64,000 nt of DNA from an uncultured bacterium (GTDB lineage: Bacteria; Patescibacteriota; Gracilibacteria; BD1-5; UBA6164), in the NCBI GenBank assembly GCA_963922865.1, contig CAWUJK010000003.1:1947-65946 (forward strand), written 5' to 3'. Positions 18,752 through 50,628 of this stretch are shown piece by piece (position 1 is the first letter of the stretch; each line of letters opens with the position of its first letter). A program made the position numbers and the translations under genes. A model generated the notes under the pieces. The model was not told the DNA's origin and searched no databases. It saw only the letters and a program-made list of their open reading frames with translations.

Positions 18752-18755
18752 ATAA

Positions 18756-19463: not shown

Positions 19464-19470
19464 CTTTGAA

Positions 19471-23156: not shown

Positions 23157-23735
23157 ATGGAAGCTTTTTTAAAAAAAATTGTAGATTGAAATAAGTTTGA
23201 GTTAACTATTGATACTAAGATTTTTAGTAAAGATTTAGTATTAAAGACTTCTTATAATTTTTTAGATTTATGATATTTTTATTTTAAGATGTCTTGAAAC
23301 AATATTGTATTACAGCTTACAAAAAAATCTTGAGATAAAAGAGATTTAGAAGATATCATTTGAGATTTTTCAAGCTCTCTACTTGAGACTTATTTGAGAG
23401 ATAAACTAGAGCGTGATAATAAATCTATCAGAGAAGCTATAGTAGAAAAAGCTATTAATGGTCCTTTGGATGCTAATAATTTTGTTTCTCTTGACACTGA
23501 TAAATGACAAGAAGCTTGAGAACAAACACAGCAAAATCAAATAGACTTTGATAAAGATATAGATGAAATATTAAAAGAGATAGAAAATGATCCAGAGCTA
23601 AAAATAGACGAAGAAGAGATAGAAAAAATATTAAAAGAAATAGAAGAAGAAAGTGAAAGCGAAGCCTCAGCAAAACCTTCTATTAAAATTGATCCAAATG
23701 CTGTAAAAAATGCTAAGAAAAATTTTAAAAAATAA
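23157..23735 (+). CDS. hxsD: HxsD-like protein with acidic C-terminal extension (192 aa)
   Basis: The frame was scanned and is clean. The N-terminal ~100 aa end in SSLLETYLRDKLERD, resembling the LLNDYxLRE signature I recall for the HxsD family. It sits directly upstream of hxsB. Confidence 0.6.
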
Positions 23736-23756
23736 ATTAATATATACTAAGTATTT

Positions 23757-23954
23757 ATGGAAAAACAATATAAAATAGATGGTGATATATATAGTAATGA
23801 AATTATAAATGATGCGATTTCTAGTTTTTCTTGAGTTGCTGATATAAAATATGAAAATAATATGATTTCTATCAGTGCAAGTAATACTTCTGAAGTAGAA
23901 GAGATTTTCAATGAATTTATGAATTATTGTATACATTTAATTAATGAGATATAA
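23757..23954 (+). CDS. small HxsD-like or unknown protein (65 aa)
   Basis: The frame is clean. It ends 2 nt before the hxsB ATG. The C-terminus reads EEIFNEFMNYCIHLINEI. Confidence 0.5.
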
Positions 23955-23956
23955 AA

Positions 23957-25426
23957 ATGTTAGATATAAAAAAAATAAATAATGCAAACACTGATAAAAT
24001 ATGATTTTTTAGGTTCAAAAAATTTGATAAAAATAAGTATTTGATAACAAATGATGCTTGAAAATTTGCTTTTTTGAGTTTGAAAGATTTTGATATTTTT
24101 CTTTCTTGAGAAAAGTTAGAAAAATTAAAAAATTATGATGATTTATTAAAAAAAGGTTTTATCAAAACAGATGATTATAAAGAAAAAATGATATGAAGTG
24201 TTGCACAAAAAAATCATTTTGTATGAGTTGGTCCTACTTTACATATGATAGTCGTTACTCTTAGATGTAATCATAAATGTGAATATTGTCATGCAGCGGT
24301 TGCTCCTATGAGCGCTAAGGAGTTTGATATGAGTAAAGATACAGCTAAAAAAATTGTAGATACTATATTTTATACTAATTCTCCTGCTTTGACAATAGAG
24401 TTCCAAGGGTGAGAAGCTTTAGTTAACTACGAAGTTGTCCAATTTATAGTTGAATACTCTAAACAAAGGGCAGAGCATCTAAAAAAAGAGCTGTCTTTAG
24501 TTATGGTTTCAAATCTTACTTTGATGAGCGAAGAAAAACTGAGTTGGTTACTTGATAATGGTGTAGACGTTTGTACCAGTCTTGATTGAGATGAATTAAC
24601 TCATAATAATAATAGGACTTGATTTGATTGAAATTCTTTTGAAAAAGTTACTTATTGGATGAAAAGAGTTAACGAGGAAAAACAAAAAAGAAATATGTGA
24701 AAAGTTTGAGCCCTTTTAACTGTTACTAAAAAAACTATTCCAAATTATAAAAAAATAATAGATTCTTATATAAAATTGGGTCTTGATTGAATATTTCTTA
24801 GATGGTTAAATCCTTATGGTTTTGCAGCTGCTCAGTTGGATAAACTAGCTTATGAGTCAGATGATTGGATAGATTTTTATAAAAAATCTCTTGATTATAT
24901 TATAGAAATAAATAAAAAATGAACTTTTTTCAAAGAGAGTATAACTTCTGTTTATTTAATGAAGATTTTTAATCCTGTAGATCCGGGTTTTATGGACATA
25001 AGAAGTCCTAGTTGAATAGCTATTTGAGGTGTGGCATATAATTATGATTGAAAAATATACGCTTCTGATGAATCAAGGATGCTTGCTAGGATGTGAGATG
25101 ATGCGTTTTTAATGAGTGATTGAAGCTGAACTCCAGAAGAGAGTTATAGAGAAATGATAAATAGTGATGTAACCAAAGCTTCTGTGCAATCTAGTTGTTT
25201 AGATTGACTTCCTTGATACAATGAGCATGTCTATAAGCCTTATATTGGTGTTGATATCATTCATAATTATAAAGTTGCCTGAAGTTTGTTTAACCCTATA
25301 AAAAAGGATGAAAAGATGAAAATACAAATAGCTATACTTGATTATATATTTGAAAAACTTCAGGATAGTGAAGTTGAGAAAATTTTTATGAGTTGGATAG
25401 CTTGAAAAAATTGAGAAAATGATTAG
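23957..25426 (+). CDS. hxsB: radical SAM maturase, HxsB-like (489 aa)
   Basis: The whole frame was scanned. The triad is CNHKCEYC and the SAM motif is EFQGGEA (second G = TGA). The long C-terminal domain and the position next to the HxS-repeat peptides match the His-Xaa-Ser system architecture. Confidence 0.8.
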
Positions 25427-25444
25427 TATATAATATATAGATAT

Positions 25445-25795
25445 ATGCCGCATAAAAAAAAGAAAATTTTTCCAAAAATTAAAAAGAAATTAAAATGATT
25501 TTTAACTGATGAGAGTTGAAAAATTAGTAAAAAAGATGCATTGGGTTTAGCTGCTGGGAGTGTTTTATTGTGAGGTGCTGGAGAGGTATGAGCTCGAAAT
25601 TATTGAAATCATATAAGTGGTTGATTTAATCTACAAAGTGGTCACCTAAATGCATCTGCTTCTGCTATTTGTAATCATGCTAGTTGACTAATTAATGGGC
25701 ACTATAGTGTTACTCCTAGTGGAACTGCTAAAATTTCTGGACATGCTAGTCATGGTAGTCATGGTAGTCATGGTAGTCATGGTAGTAGGTGGTAG
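25445..25795 (+). CDS. hxsA: His-Xaa-Ser repeat precursor peptide 1 (116 aa)
   Basis: I translated it codon by codon. It has a Lys-rich leader. The core contains HIS, HAS, HYS, HAS and four HGS triplets, and ends HGSHGSHGSHGSRW. Confidence 0.85.
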
Positions 25796-25836
25796 TATAT
25801 CTTATTAGAACATTGTAATATCTTAATTTTGTTTAT

Positions 25837-26316
25837 ATGTGAAATAAAAAAACCAAAATTTTTCCAAAAATTAAAAAGAAATTAAAATGATTTTTAACTG
25901 ATGAGAGTTGAAAAATTAGCAAAAAAGATGCTTTATGATTGGCTACTGGTAGTATTTTATTAAGTTGAGCTGATGAAATTAGCGCTGGTCATTCAAACCA
26001 TGGTAGTCATAGTAGTTGACCTGGTTGACATTTGAATCAAGGTCACGCTAGTTGAAATTTAAGATCGTGACATGTTAGTGCTAATCCTGGTGCAGTAACT
26101 AAGACATCACATGCTAGTTGAATTGTGAATGGTCATTATAGTTCAACCCCTAATTGATGAGTTTATGATCCTGCTCATGCTAGTGGTTATGGTAATTGAT
26201 GACATTTAAATCAGTGAGCTGTTAATTGAAGACTTCATGCTAATCATGGTAATCATAGTAATCATGGTAGTCATGCTAGTCATGGAAGTCACGGTAGTCA
26301 CGGTAGTAGATGGTAA
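25837..26316 (+). CDS. hxsA: His-Xaa-Ser repeat precursor peptide 2 (159 aa)
   Basis: I translated it codon by codon. The leader is almost identical to that of peptide 1. It has about 12 HxS triplets plus HxN variants and the same HGSHGSHGSRW C-terminus. Confidence 0.85.
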
Positions 26317-26328
26317 ATTAAAGATTTT

Positions 26329-27267
26329 ATGCAAAATATTGATTTTAAAAATGTTAGTTGATTAGAAATTTCTTTATTGTATAAATGCAATGTAGGATGT
26401 GAGTTTTGTCACTTGTGAAATTTGAAAGAAGAACATGAACAAAGGTTATCCAAAGAGCAAGTATTTGATATATTAAAAAATTGATATGAACAATGAAAAA
26501 GATCAGTAATTTTTACTTGATGAGAGCCTACTTTGGAAGTAAACCTGCCAATTTATATACAAAAATCTAAAGATTTATGATTCCAACATATAAGAGTCCA
26601 CTCTAATGGTTTTGCTTTTCAAAATTATAGTTTTGTAAAAAATTTACATGATAAATGATTGACCTGAGTTACTATATCAGTTCATTGATACAAAATTATT
26701 CATGATTGTATAACAAAAACACCATGAAGCTTTGATGTTATATTTAAAAGTTTTATAAATTTTGAAAAAATAATTCTTAAAGATGATAGTTTTTCTGTTG
26801 ATACAAATACTATTATTTGCAGAAAAAATTATAAGTATTTAAAACAGCTTTTGATTTTTTTAATGAAATTTAGTATAAAAAGAAGAATGTTTACCTATAC
26901 ATTTAATACCGTCTTGTATCATGAGTTTTGAGATCTAAAAAGTATTATAGTTTCTTATGAAGAGTTGAAAAATCCCATAAATAAATTGCTTGAATTTTGT
27001 GAATTTAAGAAAATAAAAGATTTTGTATTAGATTCTATACCTTATTGTTTGATAAATGAAAAATATTGGCATTTTATAGAAGAAAATTATCTACCAGATA
27101 AACATTTTTATTTACTTGATTATTATGATTGAAATGATAATACTTACAATGATGGAAAAATAAAGTATATTGAATGTAGAGATTGTAAAAAAGATAAACA
27201 ATGTACATGATTTTCTGAGGATAATAATTTACTTTATTGAAAAATGAATTTTAATATTTTAACTTAG
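26329..27267 (+). CDS. hxsC: radical SAM maturase, HxsC-like by position (312 aa)
   Basis: The frame was scanned. The triad is CNVGCEFC. The SAM motif TGGEP is encoded as ACT TGA TGA GAG CCT at 26515-26529. The C-terminal tail is CRDCKKDKQC. Confidence 0.75.
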
Positions 27268-27272
27268 ATACT

Positions 27273-27959
27273 ATGAAAAAAATAATTATTCTATTCTTGC
27301 TTCTATTTTTTATCTTTTCTTGCTCCATATTTTGAGGCTGAAATAAAGATAATAATATAACAAAAACTAAAGAACTTAATGTTCAAAATTTAGTTTCAAC
27401 GTGATCTGAGCAATCAAATACCAATTCTACTAACGTACAAAAAGTTGATGTACAAAAAATTGATGAACAAAAAGGAATTCAGAGAGAAAAAAAATTGTAT
27501 TGAAATACTTTATCTGATATTATTAAAAACCCAAAAATTGATTTACATAAAAAGGAAAATCCAAATAAACAAGAATATTATTCTGAAAGGCTTAATGTTT
27601 ATGAGTTTTTTGTTTTTTGTAAAGGACTTATTGGTGTGGATATTTTAGATAAAGATTCTTTCATTGATTATTTAGATTTAAGAGTTCTTCATGATTATTT
27701 AAAAAAGAATAATTTTTCTTTAAATAAAAAGGATGAGCTTTTAAAATTTTTACAAAAAATAGATGGTGATTTCAATGAAGTTAACTCATTATTATACATA
27801 GAGTGAAAAATAACTAAAAAAGAATTATTTTGAAGTTTTACTAGTTCTTATCCTGATAGTATTTTGTATTTTAAAGCTTTGAAATTCAAGATAGAAAATA
27901 TTTTATCAAAAGAAAAATGTGAAAATATAGTTTTAGATAGTTGAATTAAACTAGATTAA
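27273..27959 (+). CDS. lipoprotein embedded in the maturase cluster (228 aa)
   Basis: The N-terminus is MKKIIILFLLLFFIFSC, which carries a lipobox. Confidence 0.65.
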
Positions 27960-27964: not shown

Positions 27965-28858
27965 ATGAAAATTTTTTCATCAAAAACAAATTACATAGAA
28001 TTTTTTATAAAAATTTGAAAAAAATGTCCTACAGATTGTACTAATTGTAGTTATGCAAAATCTAAGCTTGATTATTTCTCTTTAGATAATATTTTTGAAA
28101 GAATTGATTATTGAAAAAACCTTTTTTATTCTAAAGATTTTGTTTATTTTCTTTATGGTGTTGATTTTTTATGTCATCCTAAAGCATTTGATATTCTTGA
28201 ATATGTTAATAAAACGAGTAGAAAATTTAAGATTCAGATATGATTAGATAACCTACATAATAAACAAAATATTTTAGAAGAAATATATAAAAAGTACTGA
28301 TTTTTTGAAATAACTTTAGCCAATGAAGTGAATGATAATGAAGATGTAAAAAATGTATTTAAAGCAATATCTGTTTTTTCAAAAATGAAATACCTAAGAT
28401 TTAATGTTGATTTAATTATAGATATTGATTCTAATAAAATATTGGTAGACAAATTAAAATGATTGTTTTGAAACTATTTTATAGATAAAGTACATAAAAA
28501 CTTAAGCTTTGATGATGTATGAAATATAAATCTTTGAATTACTAATAAATTTTATTTTAAACCAAAATCAAAAGAAGTATTATGAGTTTTGTATGATAAC
28601 TGTGTTATGGATGATCTATTTGATATAAAAGATGATGTTATTTATTTTAATGATCATTTGGAGCTAGATTATGATTGAAATTTTATGCTTCATACTCCTC
28701 TTTGTTTTTTAGCCTATATAAAGATAGCTCATAAAAATGATAGTGAAGAAAAAATATTAAATAAGTTTAAAAAATTTAAAAAAGATGTATCAAAAATCTC
28801 TTCAAATATGTCAAATAAGTGTTATAGTTGTATTATAAATAATTACCCTTGAGTATAA
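27965..28858 (+). CDS. radical-SAM-like protein with degenerate SAM-binding motifs (297 aa)
   Basis: CPTDCTNC lies near the N-terminus. There is no clear GGEP. The C-terminus contains KCYSC. Confidence 0.55.
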
Positions 28859-29787
28859 TGAAAGAAATAGTTAAAAAATTTAACGATGTTGCTTTTGTTT
28901 GAACTTATGAATGTAATACTGATTGTGAGTATTGTTTTTCTTTTAAGTATATCAAACCTTATAAAGGTATTGCTATGTCTTTTGAGAATTACAAATTTGT
29001 TTTAGATACTATTATAAAAAATTGAGTTAATTCTATTTCTTTTATTGGTTGAGAACCTGCTTTGTGGAATAATATTAACAAAGCCATTTCTTATGCTAAA
29101 AATTTATGAATTAAAACAACAGTTTTTTCAAACTCAATGATTTGTTTGAAAGAATTACCAGATGTTTTTTACATTCATTTAAATGTTTTATTTTTTTTGA
29201 AAAACAAAAATATAATTAAAAACTTATATGAATATTCTAAAAATTCAAAAATAATTTTTATTTATAATGTTTATAATAGCAATAAATATTCTTTAAACTT
29301 ACTTATAAAAATATTAAAGAGTTTCAAGTTTGATTTTGCTATATCTTTTAATATTGCTTTTAATATCAATATGGATAAAAATTATTGAAACTTTATATAT
29401 AATGCTTATAGAATTATAGCAGAAGAAATGGGAAAAAATGTGCTATCTTCTTGACCTTTACCTCATTGTATTTTTACTGCTGAACAAATATGTTATCTAC
29501 AACAAAAATCTATTTTGGATAATTCCTATTGACCCCCTTGATTTGATAATACAGATGTTTTTTTTCCTGTAGTTAACCCAGATACTAAAACACTTTTACC
29601 TTGTGCACCCATAAATCTAGAAATAAATTCATCGTATTTACTTGAATGAAAATATGATGATTACAAATCATATTATTCCAAAAAATTTGAAAAATTTATT
29701 TATAAAAAAAATAATTTTTGCTGAAATTGTGATAAATTTAATAAAGATTGTCAGTACTGAGGACTCATTAATTTATATTCATTTTAG
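28858..29787 (+). CDS. radical SAM protein (309 aa)
   Basis: The motifs are CNTDCEYC, IGGEP and the tail FCGNCDKFNKDC. The start overlaps the upstream stop (TAATG). Confidence 0.8.
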
Positions 29788-29799
29788 ACTTTTATATTT

Positions 29800-30690
29800 A
29801 TGAATAATCTTTTGTTTGAAATAATAATGTCTAATCAATGTAATAGGAGATGTCCTTATTGCAAATTGGATTTTCATAATAAAATAATATCCCAAGAATA
29901 TCTTGATTCTATGGTTTATTTTTTAGAGTCAAATAAATCATCAATTTCAAACTGTATTATAAACTTTTTTGGTTGAGAACCACTTTTAAACTTTGATTGA
30001 ATAAAATATTTTGTAAGTAAAACTAAACATCTACCTTTTATAAAATATTCTATATGAACAAATTGAATCCTTTTAAATGAAAAAATTTTTAATTATTTAA
30101 ATGAAAATAATTTTCAAATTTATCTCTCAATTGATACTGAAATAGCAGATGTGATTTTAAAAAAAGATTTTTTGAAAAATAATTTAAAAAATATAAAGCT
30201 CAACTTTATAGTTAACCCTAATACAGTAGATAAATCTTTTTTGCTTTTTGATAAATGTATAGATTTTGGTTTTAAAAATATAAATATAATGCCAGTCATG
30301 TTCAGTATAAAATGGAATAAAAATTCTTTTTCTTTACTTAAAAAATTTATTGATACTAAAATAAAACCTTTTAAAAATTATGATATTAATTTAGTTTCAT
30401 ATTATAACTGATTTACCACTGATATACAATATGTTTTAGATTCTGATGGATTTGTATACTTAGATCTTGACAGTCTGCTTTGGATACAAAAACAATGATC
30501 TATCTTATCTTCTAAGTTAAAAGATAAGATACATAATTATACAAAAATATGAAAAATGCAAGATATAAGTTTCAAAAAATTAATTTCTTCTTATAATATA
30601 AAAGAAATTTTAAAATTAGTTTTAGAAATACCAAAATACCAATGATTTTTAAAAGATTATAAAGTAATATCTAAAATATTTAATGGATAA
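29800..30690 (+). CDS. radical SAM protein (296 aa)
   Basis: The motifs are CNRRCPYC and FGGEPLLN. It joins track ORF 30151..30411. Confidence 0.8.
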
Positions 30691-30724
30691 CAATAAACTA
30701 AATCTTTGGAAATATATTACTTAT

Positions 30725-32014
30725 ATGAGATTGAATATGATGAATTCATATTATTTTCCATTGGAACCATTTTATGAGAAAAATCTTAATATTTCAAAAG
30801 ATTTATTTATAAAGTCACTCAGATCAAAAAATAAATGATTATATATTCATATACCTTTTTGTATTACTGAATGTTCTTATTGTGCTTGTACTAAAATGCA
30901 ATTAAAAAATGGAATTTCTACATCAATTTATGTTGAATATTTAATAAAAGAACTTGAAATTTTTTATAAGCTAAACTCTAGAAAAAAACTTATTTTTAAT
31001 ACTCTTACTTTTGGTTGATGAACGCCATCAATATTATCAATTTCTGATATTGAAAATCTTTTTTCTTGAATATATAAATATGTAGAAAAAAAATTTATTA
31101 CTCAAATTAGTTTTGAAGCTGCACCCTATACTATAACAAATGAAAAAATAGATATTTTGAAATCTATGTGAGTAAATAGAATGTCATTTTGAATACAATC
31201 CTTAGACAAGCAGATACTAAAAAATAATAACAGACCATATATACCAAAACAAAAAATTAAAGCACTAGTAAAATATATACAAAGTTTATGAATTAGTATT
31301 GAAGCAGATTTGATTGTTTGAATAAAATCACAAACAATCAAATCTGTAATTGAAGATGTAAAATTTTTGTTGTCCATGTGATTAGATGATATAACCTTTA
31401 ATTATTTTTCACCTCATAGATTTTCAAAATATATAGATAATAAAGATACTATAAACTTGAAAGAAAAATTTAAACTTATAGATAAAAAATTAGTTGAAAA
31501 TTGACAGGTTAAATGATCTTATTGTTTTCAAGAAAGATATATTTACTCTGCTAGAAGATACACTATTATTGGTCTAGGATATGGTGCCACTTCAAATCTT
31601 TGAAATAGTTTTGTTTATGTAAAAGATTCTTTACAAGATTACTATGATTTGATTGATAAATGAAAAATACCAGCATCATCATGAATATATATGGATGACA
31701 ATTTTGAATATATAAGATATATTTATTGGCATATCATCAAATGAGAAATAGATTTGATTGAAATGAATAGAATTTTTTGAGTAGATGTATATAATAAATT
31801 TAAAAAAGAAATTGATTTTTTAGTTCTTGAAAAAATAATTGAATATGATGGAAAATCAATAAAAAATATAACATCTATTGACAATTTATTTATCCATTTA
31901 ACCGTTTTTATTGAAAACATAGTAGAAAATAGTATGTTTTCTAAATCACCTAAAAAACTACCAAAAAATATTGATATGATTCTCAAACAAATGATATATG
32001 ATTATGTAATTTAA
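30725..32014 (+). CDS. HemN/HemW-like radical SAM protein, paralog 1 (429 aa)
   Basis: The motifs are LYIHIPFCITECSYC, FGGGTPS and GVNRMSFGIQS. Confidence 0.8.
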
Positions 32015-32015
32015 A

Positions 32016-33335
32016 ATGAATAAAAAAAAGCTAGATTTTCGGAAATTTATGACATATAAAATGTTATCACTAAATTCATCTTTTGTATTTCCATTGGAGT
32101 TTTTTTTCAAACCTAATTTCAAACCAAATATATCTGAGATATCATCATACTTAAATAAAAAAAATAAGTGACTATATATTCATATACCTTTTTGTATTAA
32201 AATTTGTGATTATTGTGGTTGCTATAAACAAAAAGTATCAAAAAAAGATGATTTAGATAAATATGTTGATTATTTAATAAAAGAACTAGAGATTTATTAT
32301 GAGTTGAATAATTCAAAAAAACTAGAATTTACAACTATAATGTTTTGATGATGAACCGCTTCTATCCTAACGGTAAAGCAACTTGATAAATTATTTTATT
32401 GACTTTATAAATTAATAGATAGAACTAATCTCAAACAAATAAGTTTTGAATCTTCTATTTTTACATTGAATAATTCTAAAATAGATATTTTAAAAAAATA
32501 TGATGTTGATAGAATTTCTATTTGAATACAAAGCTTTGATAAAACTGTTTTGGAAAAGAATAATAGAGTATATATGGAATATTATAAGATAAAAAATATA
32601 GTAAACTATATAAAAAAATCATGAATTTTAGTTCAGGTTGATCTAATGATATGAATAAAATGACAAAATGAAAAAAATTGTATTAAGGATTTTAAAAAAA
32701 TGATAGAACTTTGAGTTGATAGCTACACAATGAACTATTATATAGCACATGATTATGCTAATTTTTCTGATACAAAAAAGGGATTGAATTTAAAGGAAAC
32801 AATGAAAAAACTAGACCATAAATATAATTTTATAGCAAAACATAAATGATCATATTTACTCCAAGAAGATTTAGTTTTCAATGATTTTAATTATTTTGTT
32901 GTATGACTTTGAGTTTGAGCAACTAGTAATATTTGAAATAAATATATTTATAGAAAAACCAATTTTTTAAATTATTATAAAAATATTGATAACAAAAAAA
33001 TAATTGCTGATAGCTGAGTTGTTGCTCCAACTAATTTTCCAGAGATAAAGTACATGTTTGAAAAATATAAAGACTGAGATATTGAGTTTGAAAACTTCAA
33101 AAATACTTTTTGAAAAGATATAAAGATTTTATTTAAAAAAGAATTGGAATTTTTAGCTTTAGAGGGTATTATAGATATAGGTGAAACTAATTTAAAATTT
33201 TTGAAAAATAAATATGAATCTAGAATATATCTAAATGTTTTCTTAGAAAATTTTTTTGAAAGTAAAAAAGATATAGAAATTCCAGTTTTGGATAAACAAT
33301 TCCATTTAGATTTAACATGACTTATATATGAGTAA
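32016..33335 (+). CDS. HemN/HemW-like radical SAM protein, paralog 2 (439 aa)
   Basis: The motifs are LYIHIPFCIKICDYC, FGGGTAS and DVDRISIGIQS. It starts 1 nt after the paralog 1 stop. Confidence 0.8.
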
Positions 33336-34002
33336 TATTATAAAATATGATAAAAATATAAAAATATCTTTATCTAACTGAAAAATTGTCAAAAAACATA
33401 AGTATTTTAATAATTATATAAGAGAGAAAAAAGCATACTTATTTTTTTCAAAAAATAATTTAGAAAATTTTAATATACCAAAAATAATTAAGTTTTATGA
33501 TAATAAAAAAATTATTGAGATGGAAAATATAGATTGATCTTACACTTGAGAAATACTAAAGTCTAAAATCAAAAATAATTTAGAATTTGCTATTAAGCTC
33601 TTTAAGAATTTAAATTCTTGACTTAAAAGTTTACATAATTTTGAAATCAGAGATTGATTTGATATAGATGAAATATTTCATTTTGATAGAAATAATCCAT
33701 ACATGAAGAATGTTTTTAAAAGTTTTGGTATACAACATTATCCTATTGAAAAGTGTTTTGTCCATTGAGATTTAACATTTGATAATATTATGTATAAAGA
33801 TGATAAATTATACTTTATTGATTTTACTGCTTTTTGTATCTCTGATAAATATTATGATTTTGTTTTTTATTATTGATTTGCTGAATTGTTAAGTTTGGAT
33901 ATATTATTAAAGTTAATAAAAATATTTTATTGAGATAAATTTAATTATAACAAATTTGAAACTTATGTTATATTGAAATGAATTAAAAGTTTAGATTTTT
34001 AA
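33328..34002 (+). CDS. small kinase of the aminoglycoside/choline-kinase (APH) fold (224 aa)
   Basis: The motifs are HGDLTFDNIMY and LYFIDFT (catalytic loop and DFx-like). It overlaps the upstream gene by 8 nt (ATGAGTAA). Confidence 0.6.
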
Positions 34003-34051
34003 TTTAAAAATATTTTACCTTTTAATTAGTTGTTATTAGAATTGATTTATA

Positions 34052-34939
34052 ATGAAAAATAATAATAAAAATGCTTTTGAATGTAGTGCTGTTACAAAAT
34101 GAATTGAGATAGAATTGACCAGCTATTGTTCTTTTAAATGCATAATATGTCCTAGAGAAAAGCTCCCTAAGTATCATTTTTTAGATTTTGATAATTTCAA
34201 GAAAATAATTGATTTAGTTAAACAATGAAATTATACAGAAATAATGGTATGTGGTTTATGAGATGCATTTTTGCATAAAGATATAAATAAATTTTTGGAT
34301 TATTTGTTTTTAAAACTTCCAAATATAAATTTTTTTATAATGACTAAATGACAAAGTATACAAAATAAACACCTTGAAAAAATATCTGAACTTCAAAAAA
34401 AATGATATAAAGTTTCCTTGACCTTTTCTATATTTTCTTTAAATAAACCTATTTATAACTATCTAACCTGATGAGATTTTTTTGATAAATTTATGCAAAT
34501 ATTTAAAAAAGTTATTTCTATGAATATAAATTATTCTTTGGAGTTTTTGCTTTCAACTTTGACCCTAAAAGAGTTAGATAGTTTCAAAAAATTTGCTTAT
34601 AAATTATGAAAAACAGATTATTGAATTTCACTTGTACATAATTGGTCCTGAGAGATACCACATTCTATCCATAAAAAACTTTTTAATGAAAAAAAATTAA
34701 AATGATTTTATCAAAAAAGAAAAAGTAATGATTTATGTGAGGCCATAAAATATGATTATCTTTACATAGATTCTTATTGAGATGTTTTCCAATGCTCTTT
34801 GAATGAATTACATAGAAAAGGACTTTTATGAAAACTATGAGATTATAGCTTAAAAGAATTCTTAAATAAAAAAAGAATGCTAAATTATAAAAAAACTTGT
34901 GAATGATGTTTTTATTTAGACTTTAAAACATTTTGTTAA
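34052..34939 (+). CDS. radical SAM protein (295 aa)
   Basis: The triad is CSFKCIIC, followed by VCGLGDAF. The C-terminal Cys residues are CEA...QCS...TCEGCFYLDFKTFC. Confidence 0.75.
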
Positions 34940-35700
34940 TGAACATAGCAATAATATGACTTTGAAACCACTGAAAAAAATATATAAATTTTTTTGAAAA
35001 AAAAGATTTAGAAGTTTTTTGAGCTTGTAAGACAAGAAAAACAAAAAATTATATAGAAAGTAATTATCATATTAAAGTATTTTTAGATTATAAAGAATTG
35101 ATAAAAACTCATAGACTTGATTTTATTGTTTTAGCTCTACCTCAAGAAATCCAATGAAAAATAGCTTTAAATATATTAAAAAAAGTATCTAAAAAAACCA
35201 AGATTCTTATTGAATTACCAGTTTGTGATTCAATCTCTGATAGAGAAGCTTTAGAAAAGTTTGAAAATGTATGATTTTTTATTGAAGAATATTATAGTTT
35301 ACTTTCAAGTTTTTTGAGAAAAATTGATATTTCAAATATATCTAGTATAAATGTTAGTATGTATGTGTCAGCTGAAGATTTTTGAGATGAAAAATCTCAA
35401 AATATTGATAAAATTCATTTAATGAATAACTTCGTATGACTTTGAATTGATTATAATATTTTTGATATAAAAATATATAAACATGATGATATAAATGTAT
35501 ATTTTGATATAAATTTTTCTTATTTGTGAAAAAAAATTAATTATAGCTTTTTTGAAAAAAAGATTTTAAAAATTTGAAATAAACAATTTATAGATAATTT
35601 TAATTTTGATGAAGTCATAAACAGTTTACTTGTTGATTTTTCACCTTCTTCTAAATCAAAAAAAGATTTTAATAGACTATTTAAAGAAATTAATTGATAA
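34939..35700 (+). CDS. NAD(P)-binding Rossmann oxidoreductase, Gfo/Idh/MocA-like (253 aa)
   Basis: The N-terminus is MNIAIIGLGNHGKKY. The start overlaps the upstream stop (TAATG). Confidence 0.55.
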
Positions 35701-35704
35701 AAAT

Positions 35705-37807
35705 ATGAAATATATTTGAGCAAATTTTATCACTAGCATAAAAGATTGGAGTTGTGTATTAATAGAGAATTGAAATTTAACTTGAGTTTCTTTGGACAAG
35801 TTAGATTCTTTTAAGTTTTCTCCCTATTTATCAGATCTTATTTTATATTCTATTCAATCAAAAAAGCAAGGAAAACAAAGCTCTCTTTTCCCTAATTTAT
35901 ATGAAAAAGATTTAATCAAAATCACTAAAAGTGCTAGAGATACTTTTAAAAACTATTTTAGCTTAACAAATTTTTATGAAAGTATTAATTTTGAAGGAAA
36001 AAATATAATAAATTACAAAAATAAACATGCTTATTATCATGTCTTATGAACCCACTTTTCAAGTCCTTTCAATGATTCTGTGTGAATTTGTATAGACTAT
36101 CTATGATACAATGATTTTTGAAATCATCAAGTTCAAACTATATGGAAATGTGGTAAAAATAATATTGATTTATTAGATGATTTTGATACAAGCTTAACTA
36201 TAAACAGGTGAATATGATTTACTTATTCTATTTTTGCTGATTTTTTTGATATTTATAAATATGATATTGCTTTTTTAGTCCCTTATTGAAATAAAAATTT
36301 ATTTTCTTGAATAGAATTATATGAATATAAAGATGGAAATGTTTTTTTGAAAAAAGATTTCTTGTATTGAGTTTCTCTACAAGCTGACTTATTACCTAAA
36401 ACTTTTTATGCATCAATAGAAGAAATACCATGAAATATGGATGCTATATATTCAAATATAAAAAGAATATTTAACATAAATGACAAACAAATAAATGATG
36501 CACATAAAGATTTGAAAAAATGAATTATAGCAAATTTACTAGCATATGTTCATGATGAAACTAGAAAAGCTTGTTTGTTCTTAACTAATAAGGCCTATGA
36601 ATTATGAAATTCTAAAAATTTAACTATATCAGGTTGGTTAGCATCAAATCATTTGCTTTGTAATGAAATAGTTAATAAATCTAGGTTTAAAAATTTTTAT
36701 TTTGAAGTTTCTCCAAACTATACTGGTATATCAGTTTGAGCTGCCTTTGAGTTATACAAAAAAAGTATATATTTAGAAAAAACATGATATTGAAAGCAGT
36801 ATTCAAATGAGGATATTTTCATAACTTTATCAAATTATTCAAATTATTTAAGTTTTGATTTATTAAGTGATATTGAGCAACAAAATAATCTAATCATAGA
36901 TAAATTGAAAAATAAAAAAATCATTTGATATTTTAAAGCAGGAAGCGAATTATGACCAAGAGCTCTATGAAATAGAAGTATATTATCAATTTGTGATTGT
37001 GAAGATTTATCTGATAAAATTAGATCTATTAAAAAAAAGCAAAACTGGAAAAGCTTTTCAATCTCAATTTTAGAAAATGAGCTTTGAACTTACTTTGAAG
37101 ATAATCATAAATCTATTTTTATGAGTTTATCATCGAAATTAAAAGATAAGTATAAAAAAGATTTTGTCTGAGTTAATTTTGATAACAATATTATCAGATA
37201 CCAAAGTATTTGAGAAAATAATAATAGATTTTTATATGATTTATTATGTAGTTACTCTAAAGTAACATGAAAGCCTTTCTTATTGAATACATCTTTAAAT
37301 TCATTTAAACAATCTATTGTTGAATGCCCTAAACAAGCTATAGAGCTTTTTTTATCCACAGATATAGATTATTTAGTGTTATGAGATTTTATTGTATCAA
37401 AAGATAAAACTTATGAAAAATTTAGCTTTGATTATGAAAAAGTAAAAACTCAAAAAAACATAGATTATTTCTCAACTAACAAAGATAGTTATAAGAACTA
37501 TGTTTCTATAAAAACTATTTTAGAAAAATTATTTTTTAAGTGATGCGAATTTAATATTAGTAACATAAAATATTTTGAAACAACTATTGATTTAGATTTT
37601 TTTTGAAATAAAATAAGTATTGAAAAGTTAAATAGTTGAAAGAAATATGATATGAAAACTAATAATGTTTGAATAAAAATTTTTAAACTTGAAAGTAGAA
37701 AAGAATTAATTATTTTTTACAAAAAATTAAAGCTATTGGATTATAAATTTGAATCTATATTTTCTAAATGAGAGTATTTTTTAAAAGATTTAACTAATTA
37801 TTTATAA
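35705..37807 (+). CDS. NodU/CmcH-family carbamoyltransferase paralog, divergent at several motifs (700 aa)
   Basis: It keeps GSELGPRALGNRSIL. It has NTSLNSFKQSIVECP and SGWLASNHLLCN where paralog 2 has NTSFNVSREPIVETP and GGVALN. Confidence 0.7.
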
Positions 37808-37814
37808 ATATATT

Positions 37815-39839
37815 ATGAAATATATTTGAGCTAACATTTATTCAACTACACATCTTTGGAGCGCTTGTTATTTAGATGAAAAAGGTATTTTGAAAGCCAT
37901 TGAACTTGAAAGATTAGATAGATATAAAAATTCTCCTAATCTTTCTAGTTTTTGATTGATTCCTAAACTAGATAATTATTTTAGAAAAAAAATAATTGAT
38001 TATTTTAGTATTAAATGAGAATATAAATCTATTAATTTTGATAAAAAAAATATAATTGAAAAGCATCACTATTTACATGCTTGTTCAGTATATTATTCAA
38101 ATAATATAGAAAAAGCTGCTGTCTTATGTATGGATAGAAATGGTTATGACTTGAATTTTTGAAATCAATTTCAAACTATATGGAAAGCAAAAGATATGCA
38201 TCTAGAACTTAAATATTCTACTCAAATTGATTCTCAACTTGATAGATGAATATGATTTGCTTACTATATTATTTCTGAGTTTTTAAAACTTTGAGAATGA
38301 TCAGTAATGTGATTATCTTCTTATTGAGATAAAAATATTTATAAAAATATAAAAATTTATGAATATAGGGATAATGGAGTTTATTTTAATAAAAAATTTT
38401 TACAAAGAACTATATATGATTTTTCAAATAATTCTACTTTTTTTAAGAGATATGATTCTTTTGATGAAATGTACTGAAATAGAGATATTATTTTTGAAAA
38501 TATAAAAAATATTTTTGGACTTAGTAATCAAGATTTAGAATTTGCTAAAAATAATATTGTAAATTCCAAATTTTCACATATTGCTGCACTACTTCAATAT
38601 CAAACAGAGGAAGCTATTTTATATTTAGCTAAAAAAGCATATAAATTATACCCATCAAAAAATCTTTGTTTAGCTTGATGAGTGGCATTAAATATTTTAG
38701 CAAATACTAGAATATTAAAAGAAACTAAGTTTGAAAATATTTTTATATCACCAGTATCTGAAGATATATGATTATCACTATGAGCTTTTTATCATTTATA
38801 TCACATTCAAGAAAAAAATATTACTAGAGTATTTTTAGAAAAAACTTGATATTGAAATAGTTATTCTAAAAGTATGATTTTAAAAACTTTGGATGAATTT
38901 TGAGATTATTTAACATATGAAAAACTAACACAGCATGATATTTATGAAAAAACTGCAAATAAACTTATGGAAAATAAAGTTTTATGATGGTTTCAGTGAT
39001 GAAGTGAATTTTGACCAAGAGCTTTGGGTAATAGATCAATTATAGCATCACCTTCTTGTCTAAAAATTAAAAATAAGATTAACAAAATAAAATCAAGAGA
39101 ACTTTGGAGACCTCTGGCTCCATCTATTTTAGAAGATAGTATAAAAGATTATTTTGATATAGATTTTTTATCCCCGTTTATGAGTTTTTCCTGAAATATC
39201 AAAAAATCAAAGCTGTGATTTATAGATTGAGTAACCCATATAGATAATACTTCTAGATATCAAAGTGTAGGGGAGGTAAATAATAAAAAATATTATGATT
39301 TAATTAAAAAATTTAAAGAGAAATCTTGAATACCTATTATTATAAATACTTCTTTTAATGTCTCTCGCGAACCTATAGTTGAAACTCCTATAGACGCTCT
39401 GAAAATGTTTTTATCCACAGATATAGATTATTTAATATTGGATAATTTTTTTATAAAAAAGAGCAAAAAAACTGATAAATTTAGATTTAACTATGAAAAT
39501 ATAAGATTAAAAAGGAATCTAGTATTTTCTAAGAATAAACAAGCTATAATAAATAGAAAATACCTAAACAATAAATTTGAAAAATTATTCAAAAATTATG
39601 ATTTTAAAATTTATAACAATTTTTATGATGAAAGCATATCTTTTTTTATAGATGGTTTTAAATATATTCTTGAATTTTTTTCCTCAAGTAGTAATTATTT
39701 ACATATTGAGAAAAAAACTTGATTAATTAAGTTATGAAGATATTCTATAAATGATGATAAAATTATAAATATCATTTATAAAAAAAGTGATATTATAGAT
39801 TTTATGTTTTCAAATGATTATGTAATAAAAGATTATTAA
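37815..39839 (+). CDS. NodU/CmcH-family carbamoyltransferase (674 aa)
   Basis: The motifs are HHYLHACSVYY, LAGGVALN, GGSEFGPRALGNRSII, RPLAPSIL, HIDNTSRYQSV and NTSFNVSREPIVETP. Confidence 0.85.
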
Positions 39840-41221
39840 TGATATCCCAAATATTTTATTCTCAAGTATTATTTCCTTCAATTACTTATGATAATTGGAT
39901 TGATTTTTGAAATATGAAATTAAAAAAAATTGAAGAATTATGTTTTTGAAAAATAAAAACCACTTTTATATGTAAAGAGAATTCAAATTACTTTCATGTG
40001 TATTTTCTTTATAAGGATCTAACTTTAAAAGAAAATATAAATACAAAAGAATGGTATGTTTATTGAGATGAATCACCTTTAGTAAAAGATGTTATTTCTA
40101 GAATAAATAATGGAGTAAAGAATCAAACAGAATTCAGTTTTTTTAAAGATAAAAAATTTTACGACAAGATACCTTTTTGAGTTGTTTTAACAATAACCAG
40201 TAAGTGTAATATATTTTGTAATTATTGTTTTAATGATTATGATTACCCCTTGAAAGATAGAAACCTAAGAAAAGGTCTATCTTGAAAAGATTATAAAAAA
40301 ATTATAGACATATTGTATGAATCTTGAACAAGGGATATAATTTTAACTTGATGAGAGCCCTTCATAGCACCTTATTTTTGGGAGTTGTTAGATTATTTAA
40401 AAGAAAAAAATATTTTTACTAGAGTTAATACAAACTGAACATTGTTATCTGATGAAACTTTAAAAAGACTAAACGATAATTATGTAGTTAATTTAATGGT
40501 ATCTATACATGAATTCAATCAAAAAGATTATTTTAAAGTAAATGAAGTCTGAGCTATAAACATACAATGACTAAAATCACTTAAAAATTTTGAAGATAAG
40601 TTTTATAAAAAAATTGTAGAATTAAGAAAAATAAAAAATTATAAAAACCTTAGTTTGGATATTATGACAATACTTGATACTAAAAATATATTAAATTTAG
40701 AGAAAATATATGAGTTTATACTTAGTAACTTTGAGGTTGAAGATTGGCATTTTTTTAGATTGTATTCTACTTGAACTACTTCCTGAATATCAAGACCAAT
40801 GATTTCTTTAGCTATTGCTAAATTATACAAATTGAATAAAATCTATAAAAGGAATTTCAAAATTGTTGATAGTGTTCCTTATTGTGCTAGTAGCAATCCT
40901 GAGATAGCAAGTAAAGTAATAGATTGAGAATTATCTGAAAATCACAATGTAAAAACTATTATAACAACAGACTGATTTATACAAATAATGTCAGCTTTTG
41001 ATACTAATTTGGGTAATATACTTGAAGAGGGAATAGAAAATATATGGAGATGAAATTTTGTTCAAAAAATGCTAAATCATTGATTTTTACCAAAACAATG
41101 TCAAGATTGTCTTTACAAAGACAGTTGTAGATGAGGTTCCAGGATGGATGCTAATATATATAATTGAAGTTATGATGCTTGGGACCCATTATGAGATGTA
41201 GATAATAAAGTTATTTGATAA
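39839..41221 (+). CDS. radical SAM / SPASM-type protein with N-terminal extension (460 aa)
   Basis: The motifs are CNIFCNYC, TGGEP and the C-terminal CQDCLYKDSCRGG. The start overlaps the upstream stop (TAATG). Confidence 0.8.
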
Positions 41222-41306
41222 TTGTTTAATTCAGATCTTATTGTTTTGAACTTTATTTTATAGAAAGATAACTATTTTTAGTTATAATACATGAAAAAAT
41301 ATAATT

Positions 41307-42599: not shown

Positions 42600-42600
42600 C

Positions 42601-42939: not shown

Positions 42940-42941
42940 TT

Positions 42942-44640: not shown

Positions 44641-44646
44641 TTATTT

Positions 44647-45630: not shown

Positions 45631-45633
45631 TCT

Positions 45634-46629: not shown

Positions 46630-46673
46630 CTTGTACTATTTAGAATCCTTTTTTAAACATAACTTTATTTAAC

Positions 46674-47915: not shown

Positions 47916-47954
47916 ATTCTCAAAAAATTTTACTTTGAATTTCAAAACAATAAA

Positions 47955-49497: not shown

Positions 49498-50628
<1,131 letters not shown>

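What the first reader, a model, noticed from the sequence alone, without database searches (positions are those of the whole stretch)
23157..27267. Core hxsD-hxsB-hxsA-hxsA-hxsC locus in a CPR bacterium, with duplicated hxsD-like and precursor genes
The gene order is:
- an HxsD-like gene (SSLLETYLRDKLE, compare the LLNDYxLRE family signature) with an added Asp/Glu-rich tail;
- a second 65-aa HxsD-like ORF;
- a 489-aa HxsB-like rSAM;
- two HxS-repeat peptides;
- a 312-aa second rSAM.

This reproduces the four-component His-Xaa-Ser system defined by comparative genomics. As far as I recall, that definition came mostly from Proteobacteria. Here it appears in a recoded candidate-phylum genome with two precursors. 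I am not aware of that having been described.
Basis: partly seen in the sequence, partly recalled or inferred. Interest (0 to 1): 0.8.

Follow-up and report, generated by a model that had tools for sequence, protein, structure and literature searches.

The report
Variant HXS peptide-maturation locus in Gracilibacteria
A recoded (UGA = glycine) Gracilibacteria genome carries a diverged, apparently vertically inherited version of the His-Xaa-Ser (HXS) radical-SAM peptide-maturation system, recently shown in E. coli to block phage DNA entry; here it lacks a true HxsC, its HxsB has lost the auxiliary iron-sulfur ligands, and it heads a 31-kb run of 17 radical-SAM genes.

Summary
Read with genetic code 25, window 23157-27267 encodes six genes in this order:
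- HxsD (TIGR03976, 56.9 bits, cutoff 50)
- a 65-aa HxsD-like protein (NF038315, 41.9, cutoff 41)
- HxsB (TIGR03978, 486.8, cutoff 370)
- two His-Xaa-Ser-repeat peptides
- a 312-aa radical-SAM protein

- The 312-aa enzyme is not HxsC by the curated test (63 bits, cutoff 268). It is one of about six distant HxsC-like paralogues. The most HxsC-like and best conserved of these lies 26 kb downstream (53356-54300).
- The peptides fail all the HxsA models (HxsA to HxsA4) and lack the peptidoglycan-binding domain.
- Gene order differs from the canonical D-B-C-A.
- HxsB across this clade (120 of 120 homologues) has lost the CxxCx5C auxiliary-cluster cysteines.

The D-D'-B-A core is present in all 13 Gracilibacteria loci examined. 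HxsB forms its own clade and uses UGA-Gly as housekeeping genes do, so descent looks vertical rather than a recent transfer. NCBI already names HxsB in Gracilibacteria genomes, so mere presence is not new. The architecture and the attached array of 17 radical-SAM genes appear undescribed in the literature searched. I rate it a new variant of a known kind, of moderate interest.

The parts
23157..23735 (+). HxsD (192 aa): N-terminal HxsD domain (res 18-101) plus a clade-conserved acidic tail (res 102-170, net charge -19)
   Evidence: TIGR03976 56.9 bits, cutoff 50. PF27806 precomputed on the identical gene. Tail charge. Tail conserved in L001 and L002.
23757..23954 (+). HxsD-like small protein (65 aa)
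   Evidence: NF038315 HxsD_rel 41.9 bits, cutoff 41, borderline pass. A 61-69 aa gene sits at the same position in all Gracilibacteria loci and in L023.
23957..25426 (+). HxsB radical-SAM maturase (489 aa). Keeps CxxxCxxC and GGE but lacks the four auxiliary-cluster cysteines.
   Evidence: TIGR03978 486.8 bits, cutoff 370. Alignment columns 457/460/466/490 are Cys in the PVC, Aeromonas and Nostoc HxsB and Y/H/I/M here. 0 of 120 clade members have CxxCx5C.
25445..25795 (+). HxsA-like precursor 1 (116 aa): about 50-aa conserved leader, HASGLINGHYSVTP core motif, C-terminal HAS-(HGS)4-RW
   Evidence: Best family HxsA3 NF038309, 26.6 bits, cutoff 65. 9-bp tandem repeat 25742-25786. Family consensus.
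25837..26316 (+). HxsA-like precursor 2 (159 aa), 59% identical to precursor 1, 12 HxS triplets, ends HGSHGSHGSRW
   Evidence: HxsA3 38.9 bits, cutoff 65. Tandem repeat 26235-26307. blastp. About 100 unnamed homologues.
26329..27267 (+). HxsC-like radical-SAM protein (312 aa) with C-terminal CxxCx5C.
   Evidence: HxsC4 85.1 (cutoff 500), HxsC 63.1 (cutoff 267.9). hhalign to 5 canonical HxsC: probability 99.2, score 142. Only 32-34% identical to its positional counterparts in L007 and L010.
27273..27959 (+). Small lipoprotein-like protein (228 aa, N-terminal hydrophobic segment then Cys), no family
   Evidence: No NCBIfam or Pfam hit. A membrane or secreted protein of 217-237 aa sits next to HxsA in L001, L002 and L023; the similarity is by position only.
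27965..49411 (+). Variable part of the array. Twelve further CxxxCxxC genes start at 27965, 28858, 29800, 30683, 32016, 34052, 39839, 41307, 42942, 43777, 44647, 45634 and 48503. Also an APH-like kinase (33328), a GFO/IDH/MocA oxidoreductase (34939), two carbamoyltransferases (35705, 37815) and three unknowns.
   Evidence: Motif scan, Pfam, NCBIfam. Paralogues are only 22-30% identical, so the duplications are old. Several genes are shared with L010.
50687..51976 (+). Conserved HxsC4-like radical-SAM protein (429 aa)
   Evidence: HxsC4 135.3 bits (cutoff 500), HxsC 77.3. 66% identical to its L018 orthologue, against 64% for HxsB.
53356..54300 (+). The most HxsC-like and best conserved radical-SAM protein of the locus (314 aa)
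   Evidence: TIGR03977 101.7 bits, the top hit (cutoff 267.9). hhalign probability 99.6, score 171. More than 120 clusters at 66-82% identity, all named only 'radical SAM protein'. Linked to the hxs core in L018, L021 and L022.

Best explanation
This is a Gracilibacteria-lineage variant of the HXS radical-SAM peptide-maturation system, inherited vertically within the class.

Shown:
- The operon-like block encodes HxsD, HxsD-like, HxsB and two HxsA precursors.
- The precursors share a strictly conserved leader of about 50 aa: a basic N-region, an invariant FLTDESGKI[ST]KKDALGL motif, a short hydrophobic stretch and V-x-A.
- After the leader comes a conserved H[AS]SG[IV]VNGHYS..P motif, then a C-terminal (HGS)n run ending in Trp.

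Inferred mechanism:
- In the cytoplasm the leader is bound by the maturation machinery. HxsB's N-terminal region and the two HxsD-type proteins are the likely binders.
- The -19 acidic tail of HxsD plausibly pairs with the +9 basic start of the leader.
- HxsB, working without an auxiliary cluster, and one or more HxsC-like rSAMs install radical modifications in the His/Ser-rich core. The candidates are 26329 next door and the conserved pair at 50687 and 53356.
- The hydrophobic stretch plus V-x-A then serves as an export and cleavage signal. This would release a modified His/Gly/Ser-rich peptide of 66 or 109 aa at the cell envelope.

Function. By analogy with E. coli HXS, the mature peptide may obstruct phage DNA entry. 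This step is the least secure. The peptide has no peptidoglycan-binding domain, and I assume, without testing it, that Gracilibacteria lack a classical periplasm. Conservation also looks more like a core function than a defence gene.
For: Family membership of D, D' and B by curated cutoffs.

HxS tandem repeats.

The D-D'-B-A core is present in all 13 distinct Gracilibacteria loci examined. It sits next to housekeeping genes such as the ATP synthase operon and rpsF-ssb-rpsR.

Evidence for vertical descent:
- HxsB forms one Gracilibacteria clade, 54-76% identical internally against 32-37% to the PVC, Proteobacteria and Cyanobacteria sequences.
- TGA-Gly use is 73-88% in hxsD, hxsB and the 312-aa gene, against 67-84% in aspS, der and lysS.

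Leader and core boundary:
- 81 of 82 homologues carry FLTDES.
- Conservation collapses right after V(+29)-x-A(+31), which is Ala50.

Charge complementarity between the HxsD tail and the HxsA leader. It is also visible in the non-recoded relative L023.

Experimental precedent from E. coli (PMC13128918):
- HxsC binds HxsD.

No other peptide-sized candidate gene lies in the 31-kb array.
Against: - No canonical HxsC is present.
- Which rSAM partners HxsB is unknown. The adjacent 312-aa gene is poorly conserved (32-34%), while the conserved ones lie 24-27 kb away.
- HxsB lacks the auxiliary-cluster ligands that SPASM/twitch maturases normally need, so its chemistry may differ or it may serve as a scaffold.
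- The peptides fail every HxsA model and have no peptidoglycan-binding domain.
- Export and cleavage at V-x-A is inferred from conservation alone.
- No expression, mass-spectrometry or phage data exist for this clade.
- Wide, syntenic conservation in 1.0-1.5 Mb genomes is atypical for a defence system.
Confidence: 0.75

Rival explanations
1. One large biosynthetic cluster. The hxs genes are only the first module of a 31-kb operon-like cluster (17 rSAMs, two carbamoyltransferases, a kinase, an oxidoreductase) that builds one very heavily modified peptide or peptide-conjugate natural product. Such a product might be a toxin or adhesion factor for the episymbiotic or predatory lifestyle.
For: - All 17 CxxxCxxC genes are on the + strand with gaps of a few bases from 23157 to 47915.
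- HxsA1 and HxsA2 are the only peptide-sized candidates.
- rSAM genes follow the hxs core in every Gracilibacteria locus and in the non-recoded L023.
- Part of the gene set (30683, 27965, 34939, 29800 and 34052 types) recurs in L010.
- The array ends at the same rSAM-rSAM-pilD block in the 1.49-Mb genome, 21 kb from hxsB.
Against: - The content and size of the array vary greatly between relatives, about 9 kb in HOT-871 against 31 kb here, while the core is constant.
- A candidate defence ATPase (PDC-S01) and, in L002, toxin-antitoxin pairs are inserted inside it. That suggests a permissive variable region rather than one pathway.
- The paralogues are ancient, at 22-30% identity.
- Carbamoyltransferases, kinase and oxidoreductase could equally act on a sugar or nucleoside.
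Confidence: 0.3
2. Housekeeping role. The matured His-rich peptide is a metal-binding or redox cofactor-like molecule, with logic like the PQQ or mycofactocin systems (small precursor, chaperone, SPASM-family rSAM), and is needed by all Gracilibacteria rather than serving as immunity.
For: - HxsB (54-76% identity) and the 53356-type rSAM (66-82%) are conserved like core genes across more than 120 sequence clusters.
- The locus is present in complete or near-complete 1.0-1.5 Mb genomes beside the ATP synthase or ribosomal genes.
- The peptide has a conserved terminal aromatic residue: W in the last two positions in 52 of 81, and Y at the end in about 10. This recalls the C-terminal Tyr chemistry of mycofactocin (my own knowledge, not tested).
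- The peptide is rich in His, with 9 and 18 His in the predicted mature parts.
Against: - The leader carries a signal-peptide-like h-region and V-x-A, which points to export rather than an intracellular cofactor.
- No partner enzyme that would use such a cofactor is evident.
- The 53356 orthologue is not among close hits for the oral clade (HOT-871 type) contigs.
- The only experimental precedent for HXS is antiphage.
Confidence: 0.2
3. A canonical four-component HXS defence system recently acquired by horizontal transfer from Proteobacteria.
For: - HXS is often plasmid-borne and mobile in Proteobacteria: 414 plasmid records, 327 of them conjugative.
- Defence-type genes lie nearby (AbiE, PDC-S01).
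Against: - There is no canonical HxsC or HxsA, and the gene order differs.
- HxsB is only 32-37% identical to non-Gracilibacteria HxsB and forms its own clade.
- The genes use TGA-Gly as heavily as housekeeping genes do.
- The locus is syntenic across the class.
Confidence: 0.03

Closest known systems
Canonical HXS antiphage system, HxsD-HxsB-HxsC-HxsA. Defined by comparative genomics as TIGR03976-03979; function shown in E. coli by Li et al., Nat Commun 2026 (PMC13128918).
   Same: - HxsD and HxsB are family members by curated score.
- The substrate carries tandem His-Xaa-Ser repeats near its C-terminus.
- A small HxsD-type protein accompanies the rSAM enzymes.
- The substrate has an N-terminal segment likely removed on export.
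   Different: - No HxsC family member is present.
- There is an extra HxsD-like gene.
- Gene order is D-D'-B-A-A-(C-like), against D-B-C-A in 99.6% of known systems.
- HxsA is short, has no peptidoglycan-binding domain and has a long conserved basic leader.
- HxsD has a -19 acidic tail.
- HxsB lacks the four auxiliary-cluster cysteines.
- The locus is chromosomal, syntenic and conserved across the clade rather than patchy or plasmid-borne.
- The host is a code-25 CPR bacterium.
NCBIfam variant models HxsA3 (NF038309), HxsA4 (NF038313), HxsC4 (NF038332) and HxsD_rel (NF038315)
   Same: - HxsD_rel is passed, narrowly.
- The HxsA leader aligns to the first ~45 positions of HxsA3 in every Gracilibacteria copy tested.
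- HxsC4 is the top hit for five of the array rSAMs.
- A non-recoded relative (L023) has the same D-D'-B-x-A-rSAM layout, with HxsA3 at 54.9 bits and HxsC4 at 167.6.
   Different: - All Gracilibacteria peptides (26-43 bits, cutoff 65) and rSAMs (up to 135 bits, cutoff 500) fall well below the cutoffs.
- I could not see which organisms those models were built from.
SPASM/twitch RiPP maturases with a solved structure (CteB/SCIFF 5wgg, anSME 4k37)
   Same: HxsB's closest solved relatives: CteB at E 4.5e-17 over residues 54-246, and anSME. They share the rSAM core and a peptide-maturase type N-terminal region.
   Different: Those enzymes bind one or two auxiliary [4Fe-4S] clusters through C-terminal cysteines. 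This HxsB has only 5 Cys in total, and none in the CxxCx5C position.

Membership tests
HXS system (canonical, TIGR03976-03979) | HxsD: TIGR03976 score at or above the curated cutoff of 50 bits | tested here: met
   56.9 bits, residues 18-101 on profile 1-85/90. PF27806 precomputed.
HXS system (canonical, TIGR03976-03979) | HxsB: TIGR03978 score at or above 370 bits | tested here: met
   486.8 bits, full length 3-466/466.
HXS system (canonical, TIGR03976-03979) | HxsB auxiliary-cluster cysteines (CxxCx5C plus a downstream Cys), kept in all five non-Gracilibacteria HxsB aligned and in L023 | tested here: not met
   Replaced by Y, H/S, I/L/F and M/I in all 10 Gracilibacteria loci. 0 of 120 homologues have CxxCx5C while 120 of 120 keep CxxxCxxC. 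L023 keeps them.
HXS system (canonical, TIGR03976-03979) | HxsC: TIGR03977 score at or above 267.9 bits | tested here: not met
   26329: 63.1 bits. The best in the window is 53356 at 101.7. Positive control, the 288-aa Lentisphaerota HxsC: 315 bits.
HXS system (canonical, TIGR03976-03979) | HxsC sequence signatures CxxxCxMCxQPP and SISDWK...CxxCx5CCG, seen in all five canonical HxsC retrieved | tested here: not met
   No match in any code-25 ORF of the window. Only the generic C-terminal CxxCx5C is shared.
HXS system (canonical, TIGR03976-03979) | HxsA: TIGR03979 score at or above 121.65 bits | tested here: not met
   No TIGR03979 hit at E<=1 for either peptide.
HXS system (canonical, TIGR03976-03979) | Substrate carries tandem His-Xaa-Ser repeats | tested here: met
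   HAS-(HGS)4 and H[GA]S x5 at the C-termini; 8 and 12 HxS triplets; 9-bp DNA tandem repeats.
HXS system (canonical, TIGR03976-03979) | HxsA peptidoglycan-binding domain (PMC13128918) | tested here: not met
   No Pfam domain in either peptide. They are 116 and 159 aa, against 192 aa in Aeromonas.
HXS system (canonical, TIGR03976-03979) | Gene order HxsD-HxsB-HxsC-HxsA, with HxsB and HxsC adjacent (99.6% of systems) | tested here: not met
   The order here is D-D'-B-A-A-rSAM. The canonical order was confirmed in Aeromonas and Nostoc plasmids and three PVC loci.
HXS system (canonical, TIGR03976-03979) | Blocks phage DNA entry; rSAM-dependent +8 Da modification and processing of HxsA | not testable with these tools
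   Needs experiments. The precedent exists only in E. coli.
NCBIfam HXS variants (HxsD_rel, HxsA3, HxsA4, HxsC4) | HxsD_rel NF038315 at or above 41 bits | tested here: met
   41.9 bits, borderline. The L023 counterpart scores 45.1.
NCBIfam HXS variants (HxsD_rel, HxsA3, HxsA4, HxsC4) | HxsA3 NF038309 at or above 65 bits, or HxsA4 NF038313 at or above 55 bits | tested here: not met
   Window peptides score 26.6 and 38.9 (A3) and 17.3 (A4). Five other Gracilibacteria HxsA score 28-43.8.
NCBIfam HXS variants (HxsD_rel, HxsA3, HxsA4, HxsC4) | HxsC4 NF038332 at or above 500 bits | tested here: not met
   85.1 for 26329 and 135.3 for 50687, the best in the window.
Radical SAM superfamily | CxxxCxxC cluster motif and PF04055 above the gathering score | tested here: met
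   17 genes carry the motif. 15 have PF04055 above threshold or precomputed without a weak mark. 27965 and 28858 are weak.

The most novel reading that the evidence does not exclude
Gracilibacteria as a class carry an ancient, vertically inherited HXS-derived 'super-locus'. It comprises an auxiliary-cluster-less HxsB, two HxsD-type chaperones, a private HxsA precursor family with a dual maturation and export leader, and two conserved HxsC-like rSAMs (the 50687 and 53356 types). The locus also acts as a landing pad for a variable array of up to 17 radical-SAM genes. Its product would be a heavily modified, secreted His-rich peptide that is part of the core biology of these episymbionts, for example surface or host interaction, metal handling or constitutive envelope immunity, rather than an accessory defence gene.
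Probability: 0.3. Interest if true: 0.8.

Novelty: new variant of a known kind. Interest (0 to 1): 0.55.

Why it matters
HXS was given a function only in 2026, as the first system reported to block phage DNA entry, and was described as 99.7% confined to Pseudomonadota.

A deeply diverged, clade-wide version in a recoded CPR class would show three things:
- The D/B/HxS-peptide core is much older and broader than the proteobacterial system.
- The core can work without a canonical HxsC, without the peptidoglycan anchor, and without HxsB's auxiliary cluster.
- It offers natural 'mutants' for working out which parts carry the still-unknown +8 Da chemistry.

It also flags two other points:
- About 100 HxsA-type peptides sit in public databases as unnamed hypothetical proteins, many mistranslated with UGA = Trp.
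- A genome of roughly 1-1.5 Mb devotes 17 adjacent genes to radical-SAM enzymes of unknown function.

Tried and rejected
I reached the source contig through homologue P0001 instead.

2. Prepilin-peptidase idea. The leader motif K-G-F-L-T-D-E resembles a type IV pilin G|FxxxE site, and a Peptidase_A24 gene is a conserved neighbour. I rejected it for two reasons. The residue before Phe is not conserved: Gly (or TGA mistranslated as Trp) in only about 57%, otherwise N/S/D/K. The segment after Phe is polar, not the pilin hydrophobic helix.

3. The promoter and terminator scan was uninformative: 38 promoter-like sites against 37.7 expected, and no terminator inside the locus.

4. Rfam and tRNA scans found nothing near the locus.

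5. PADLOC gave only weak pVip hits to the N-terminal rSAM core of many paralogues (34-86 bits). I treat these as generic rSAM similarity and not evidence for viperin-type defence. PADLOC 2023 predates HXS.

6. Literature searches for Gracilibacteria, Absconditabacteria, BD1-5 or Vampirococcus together with radical SAM, rSAM or RiPP found nothing relevant.

7. The genome-contig scan returned only 12 loci because it relies on exact peptide patterns. It cannot be used to estimate prevalence.

8. The local Pfam copy lacks PF27806, so HxsD Pfam membership rests on the precomputed annotation.

9. I did not attempt structure prediction. Only HxsB, HxsA and 53356 homologues were eligible inputs, and no solved HXS structure exists to compare with.

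Full report
**1. The observation**

The window is about 22% G+C, and under the standard bacterial code the region is a litter of short ORFs. Allowing TGA as a sense codon raises the sequence in ORFs of 100 aa or more from 10.9 kb to 75.5 kb. TGA falls at invariant glycine positions: the radical-SAM GGEP motif appears as XXEP, and the same is seen in the EngA G-motifs and in AspRS and LysRS. The code is therefore table 25 (UGA = Gly). The nearest homologues are named Candidatus Gracilibacteria.

Read this way, the finding's coordinates exactly frame six genes on the + strand:
- 23157-23735 (192 aa)
- 23757-23954 (65 aa)
- 23957-25426 (489 aa)
- 25445-25795 (116 aa)
- 25837-26316 (159 aa)
- 26329-27267 (312 aa)

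The window is identical to ENA metagenome scaffold ERZ23492089 DRIS22-1_SAMN24661207_METAG-scaffold_4.

**2.

Against NCBIfam:
- The 192-aa protein is HxsD (TIGR03976, 56.9 bits, cutoff 50).
- The 65-aa protein just passes the 'HxsD-like' model NF038315 (41.9, cutoff 41).
- The 489-aa protein is clearly HxsB (TIGR03978, 486.8, cutoff 370, full length).
- The two peptides hit only the HxsA3 model, and below its cutoff (26.6 and 38.9, cutoff 65). They have no hit to the canonical HxsA model.
- The peptides do end in genuine His-Xaa-Ser runs, encoded by 9-bp tandem repeats (CATGGTAGT x5 and x8). They hold 8 and 12 HxS triplets.

The 312-aa enzyme is a real radical-SAM protein but not HxsC:
- It scores 63.1 bits on TIGR03977 (cutoff 267.9) and 85.1 on HxsC4 (cutoff 500). 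That is comparable to its MoaA score of 69.2.
- As a control, a 288-aa HxsC from a Lentisphaerota locus scores 315 bits, so the model is not merely penalising short proteins.
- Canonical HxsC proteins retrieved from Aeromonas, Nostoc, Akkermansia, Kiritimatiellae and Lentisphaerota all share CxxxCxMCxQPP and SISDWK...CxxCx5CCG. No ORF in the window has either motif.

**3.

The six genes are the head of a much longer same-strand array.
- Between 23957 and 54300 there are 17 genes with the CxxxCxxC motif and none elsewhere in the window. Fifteen are confident PF04055 members.
- Interspersed are two carbamoyltransferases, an APH-like kinase, a GFO/IDH/MocA oxidoreductase, two HemN-like enzymes and a few unknowns.
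- Six of the rSAMs (26329, 43777, 44647, 45634, 50687, 53356) have HxsC or HxsC4 as their top NCBIfam hit, all far below cutoff. They share a C-terminal CxxCx5C.
- They are old paralogues, at 22-30% identity.
- In profile-profile comparison with five canonical HxsC, the 53356 group scores best (probability 99.6, score 171). The 26329 group follows (99.2, 142), then 50687 (98.7, 120).

**4. Comparative genomics**

HxsB has more than 120 sequence clusters at 61-95% identity. Several are already named 'His-Xaa-Ser system radical SAM maturase HxsB [Candidatus Gracilibacteria bacterium]' by NCBI, including the complete oral genome HOT-871.

I examined 13 distinct Gracilibacteria loci: the window, L001/L019, L002, L004-L010, L018, L020 and L022.
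- Every one has HxsD (177-192 aa, with the acidic tail), a small 61-69 aa gene, HxsB and at least one HxsA-type peptide in that order.
- The flanks are housekeeping genes: the ATP synthase operon in the oral clade, rpsF-ssb-rpsR in another genome, and gatC-recF near L002 and in the window.
- What follows the core always includes rSAM genes but differs in content and length, about 9 kb in HOT-871 and about 31 kb here.
- In L002, toxin-antitoxin pairs are even inserted between hxsD', hxsB and hxsA.

The gene directly after hxsA is an orthologue-like rSAM only in L007 and L010, and only at 32-34% identity. By contrast:
- The 50687- and 53356-type rSAMs are 66-67% identical in L018, where HxsB is 64%.
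- The 53356 family has more than 120 clusters at 66-82% identity, all labelled just 'radical SAM protein'.
- This pair stays linked to the hxs core through rearrangements. It lies 5-9 kb downstream in L018, 21 kb downstream in the 1.49-Mb genome (L021), and immediately upstream in L022. Each time it sits next to a Peptidase_A24 gene on the other strand.
- The pair is the better candidate for the conserved partners of HxsB, but I could not find close orthologues in the HOT-871-type loci.

**5. Features that define the clade**

(a) Loss of the auxiliary-cluster cysteines in HxsB.
- In an alignment with HxsB from the PVC bacteria, Aeromonas and Nostoc, four cysteines (CxxCx5C plus one downstream) are invariant in the outgroups. 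In all Gracilibacteria copies they are replaced by Tyr, His/Ser, Ile/Leu/Phe and Met/Ile.
- Among the 120 closest homologues, 120 keep CxxxCxxC and none has CxxCx5C anywhere.
- A non-recoded relative (L023, 32.6% G+C, standard code) has the same surrounding motif with the cysteines intact: LDNLPGCSVCVYKPYCG against LDGLPGYNEHVYKPYIG. The loss therefore appears specific to the Gracilibacteria sequences examined.

(b) Charge complementarity. HxsD carries a conserved acidic tail (residues 102-170, net -19) that the 96-110 aa canonical HxsD lack. The HxsA leader begins with a +8/+9 lysine-rich stretch.

(c) HxsA is a private family of about 100 unnamed proteins, many mistranslated with TGA = Trp in public databases.
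- 81 of 82 carry the invariant FLTDES.
- The consensus leader is KKKK-I-F-P-K-[IL]-K-K-K-L-K-x-FLTDESGKI[ST]KKDALGL-x-x-G-A-x-LL.
- Conservation then collapses right after V-x-A, which is Ala50 in both window peptides.
- 69 of 81 have the core motif H[AS]SG[IV]VNGHYS..P.
- 52 of 81 end with Trp in the last two residues.

**6. Descent**

- HxsB of Gracilibacteria forms one clade in a neighbour-joining tree, separate from the PVC, proteobacterial and cyanobacterial sequences. Identity to those is 32-37%.
- The hxs genes use TGA for 73-88% of glycines, like aspS, der and lysS at 67-84%.
- Together with the conserved synteny, this argues for long residence and vertical descent, not recent transfer.

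**7. Mechanism**

The only experimental anchor is the E. coli study (PMC13128918).
- HxsB, HxsC and HxsD are all needed for N-terminal processing, a +8 Da modification in the last HxS repeat, and export of HxsA.
- HxsC binds HxsD.
- Mature HxsA is anchored to peptidoglycan and blocks phage DNA entry.

Transferring the logic, I infer the following for this locus.
- The conserved leader is the handle for the maturation machinery.
- HxsB, now without an auxiliary cluster, and one or more HxsC-like rSAMs modify the His/Ser-rich core.
- The hydrophobic stretch plus V-x-A acts as the export and cleavage signal, releasing a peptide of 66 or 109 aa at the envelope.

The final function is open. Antiphage gatekeeping is possible, and defence genes such as AbiE and PDC-S01 are nearby. 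Against it, the peptide has no peptidoglycan-binding domain and the locus behaves like a core gene set. Rival readings are one large biosynthetic pathway, or a metal or cofactor peptide. Both remain live.

**8. Novelty and verdict**

- Presence of HxsB and HxsD in Gracilibacteria is already recorded by NCBI and Pfam annotation, and NCBIfam contains variant models (HxsD_rel, HxsA3, HxsA4, HxsC4).
- No paper I could find describes it. The 2026 survey, which searched by HxsA, places 99.7% of systems in Pseudomonadota.
- As far as I can tell, these features are new: no canonical HxsC, a cysteine-less HxsB, a tailed HxsD, a private HxsA family, two conserved HxsC-like rSAMs, and a variable array of up to 17 rSAM genes.
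- I class it as a new variant of a known kind, of moderate interest.

Noticed in passing
window 23957-54300 (+ strand): Seventeen radical-SAM genes (CxxxCxxC) sit in one 31-kb same-strand array with tiny intergenic gaps. Interspersed are two carbamoyltransferases (35705-37807, 37815-39839), an APH-like kinase (33328-34002), a GFO/IDH/MocA oxidoreductase (34939-35700) and two HemN-like enzymes (30683, 32016). No rSAM gene lies elsewhere in the window, and the array's function is unknown.
   Followed up: partly
window 17795-17987 and 19460-19652, flanking 18185-19463: A 193-nt direct repeat (97% identical) brackets an AbiEi-like/AbiEii toxin-antitoxin (abortive infection) cassette. The first copy includes the 3' end of der/engA. 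It looks like an insertion with target duplication.
   Followed up: partly
window 49465-50628 (+): An AAA_14/DUF4143 ATPase matches the PADLOC candidate defence family PDC-S01 at 504 bits and is inserted inside the rSAM array. Similar AAA_14 genes flank the array end in L021.
   Followed up: no
window 52182-53291 (-) and 54311-55642 (-): A PPDK_N-like ATP-binding protein and a Peptidase_A24 (prepilin peptidase-like) membrane protein flank the conserved 53356 rSAM. The same neighbourhood recurs in L018, L021, L022 and, for pilD, in L001. I found no evidence that the peptidase cuts HxsA.
   Followed up: partly
P0001, P0121-P0200 (public copies of HxsB and HxsA of this clade): Many database entries for these code-25 genes are translated with TGA = Trp. 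For example, P0121 reads MWNKK...LKWFLTDESWK where the window gives MGNKK...LKGFLTDESGK. This inflates Trp and obscures Gly and the HxS repeats. None of about 100 HxsA homologues has a name.
   Followed up: yes
L023 (Logan ERR15087771_6477, 12.4 kb, 32.6% G+C, standard code): A non-recoded organism has the same layout: HxsD, HxsD_rel, HxsB, a secreted protein, HxsA, then four or more rSAMs including a 921-aa B12-binding fusion. Its HxsB retains the auxiliary cysteines and its HxsA nearly reaches the HxsA3 cutoff (54.9, cutoff 65). The organism is unidentified.
   Followed up: partly
L002/L003 9485-14294 (1.49-Mb Patescibacteria genome OZ245768.1): Toxin-antitoxin-type pairs are inserted between hxsD', hxsB and hxsA without disrupting them. 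They include DUF4160/DUF2442, NTase_sub_bind/Polbeta and HicA-like genes.
   Followed up: no
window 60548-61393 (-) and 61494-62327 (-): Two tandem paralogous genes (281 and 277 aa, both starting MGxIxxxSC...AENLDL) with no function assigned.
   Followed up: no
window 14711-15493 (+): A Fic-domain protein lies between aspS and corA (Pfam PF02661, precomputed on the identical contig).
   Followed up: no
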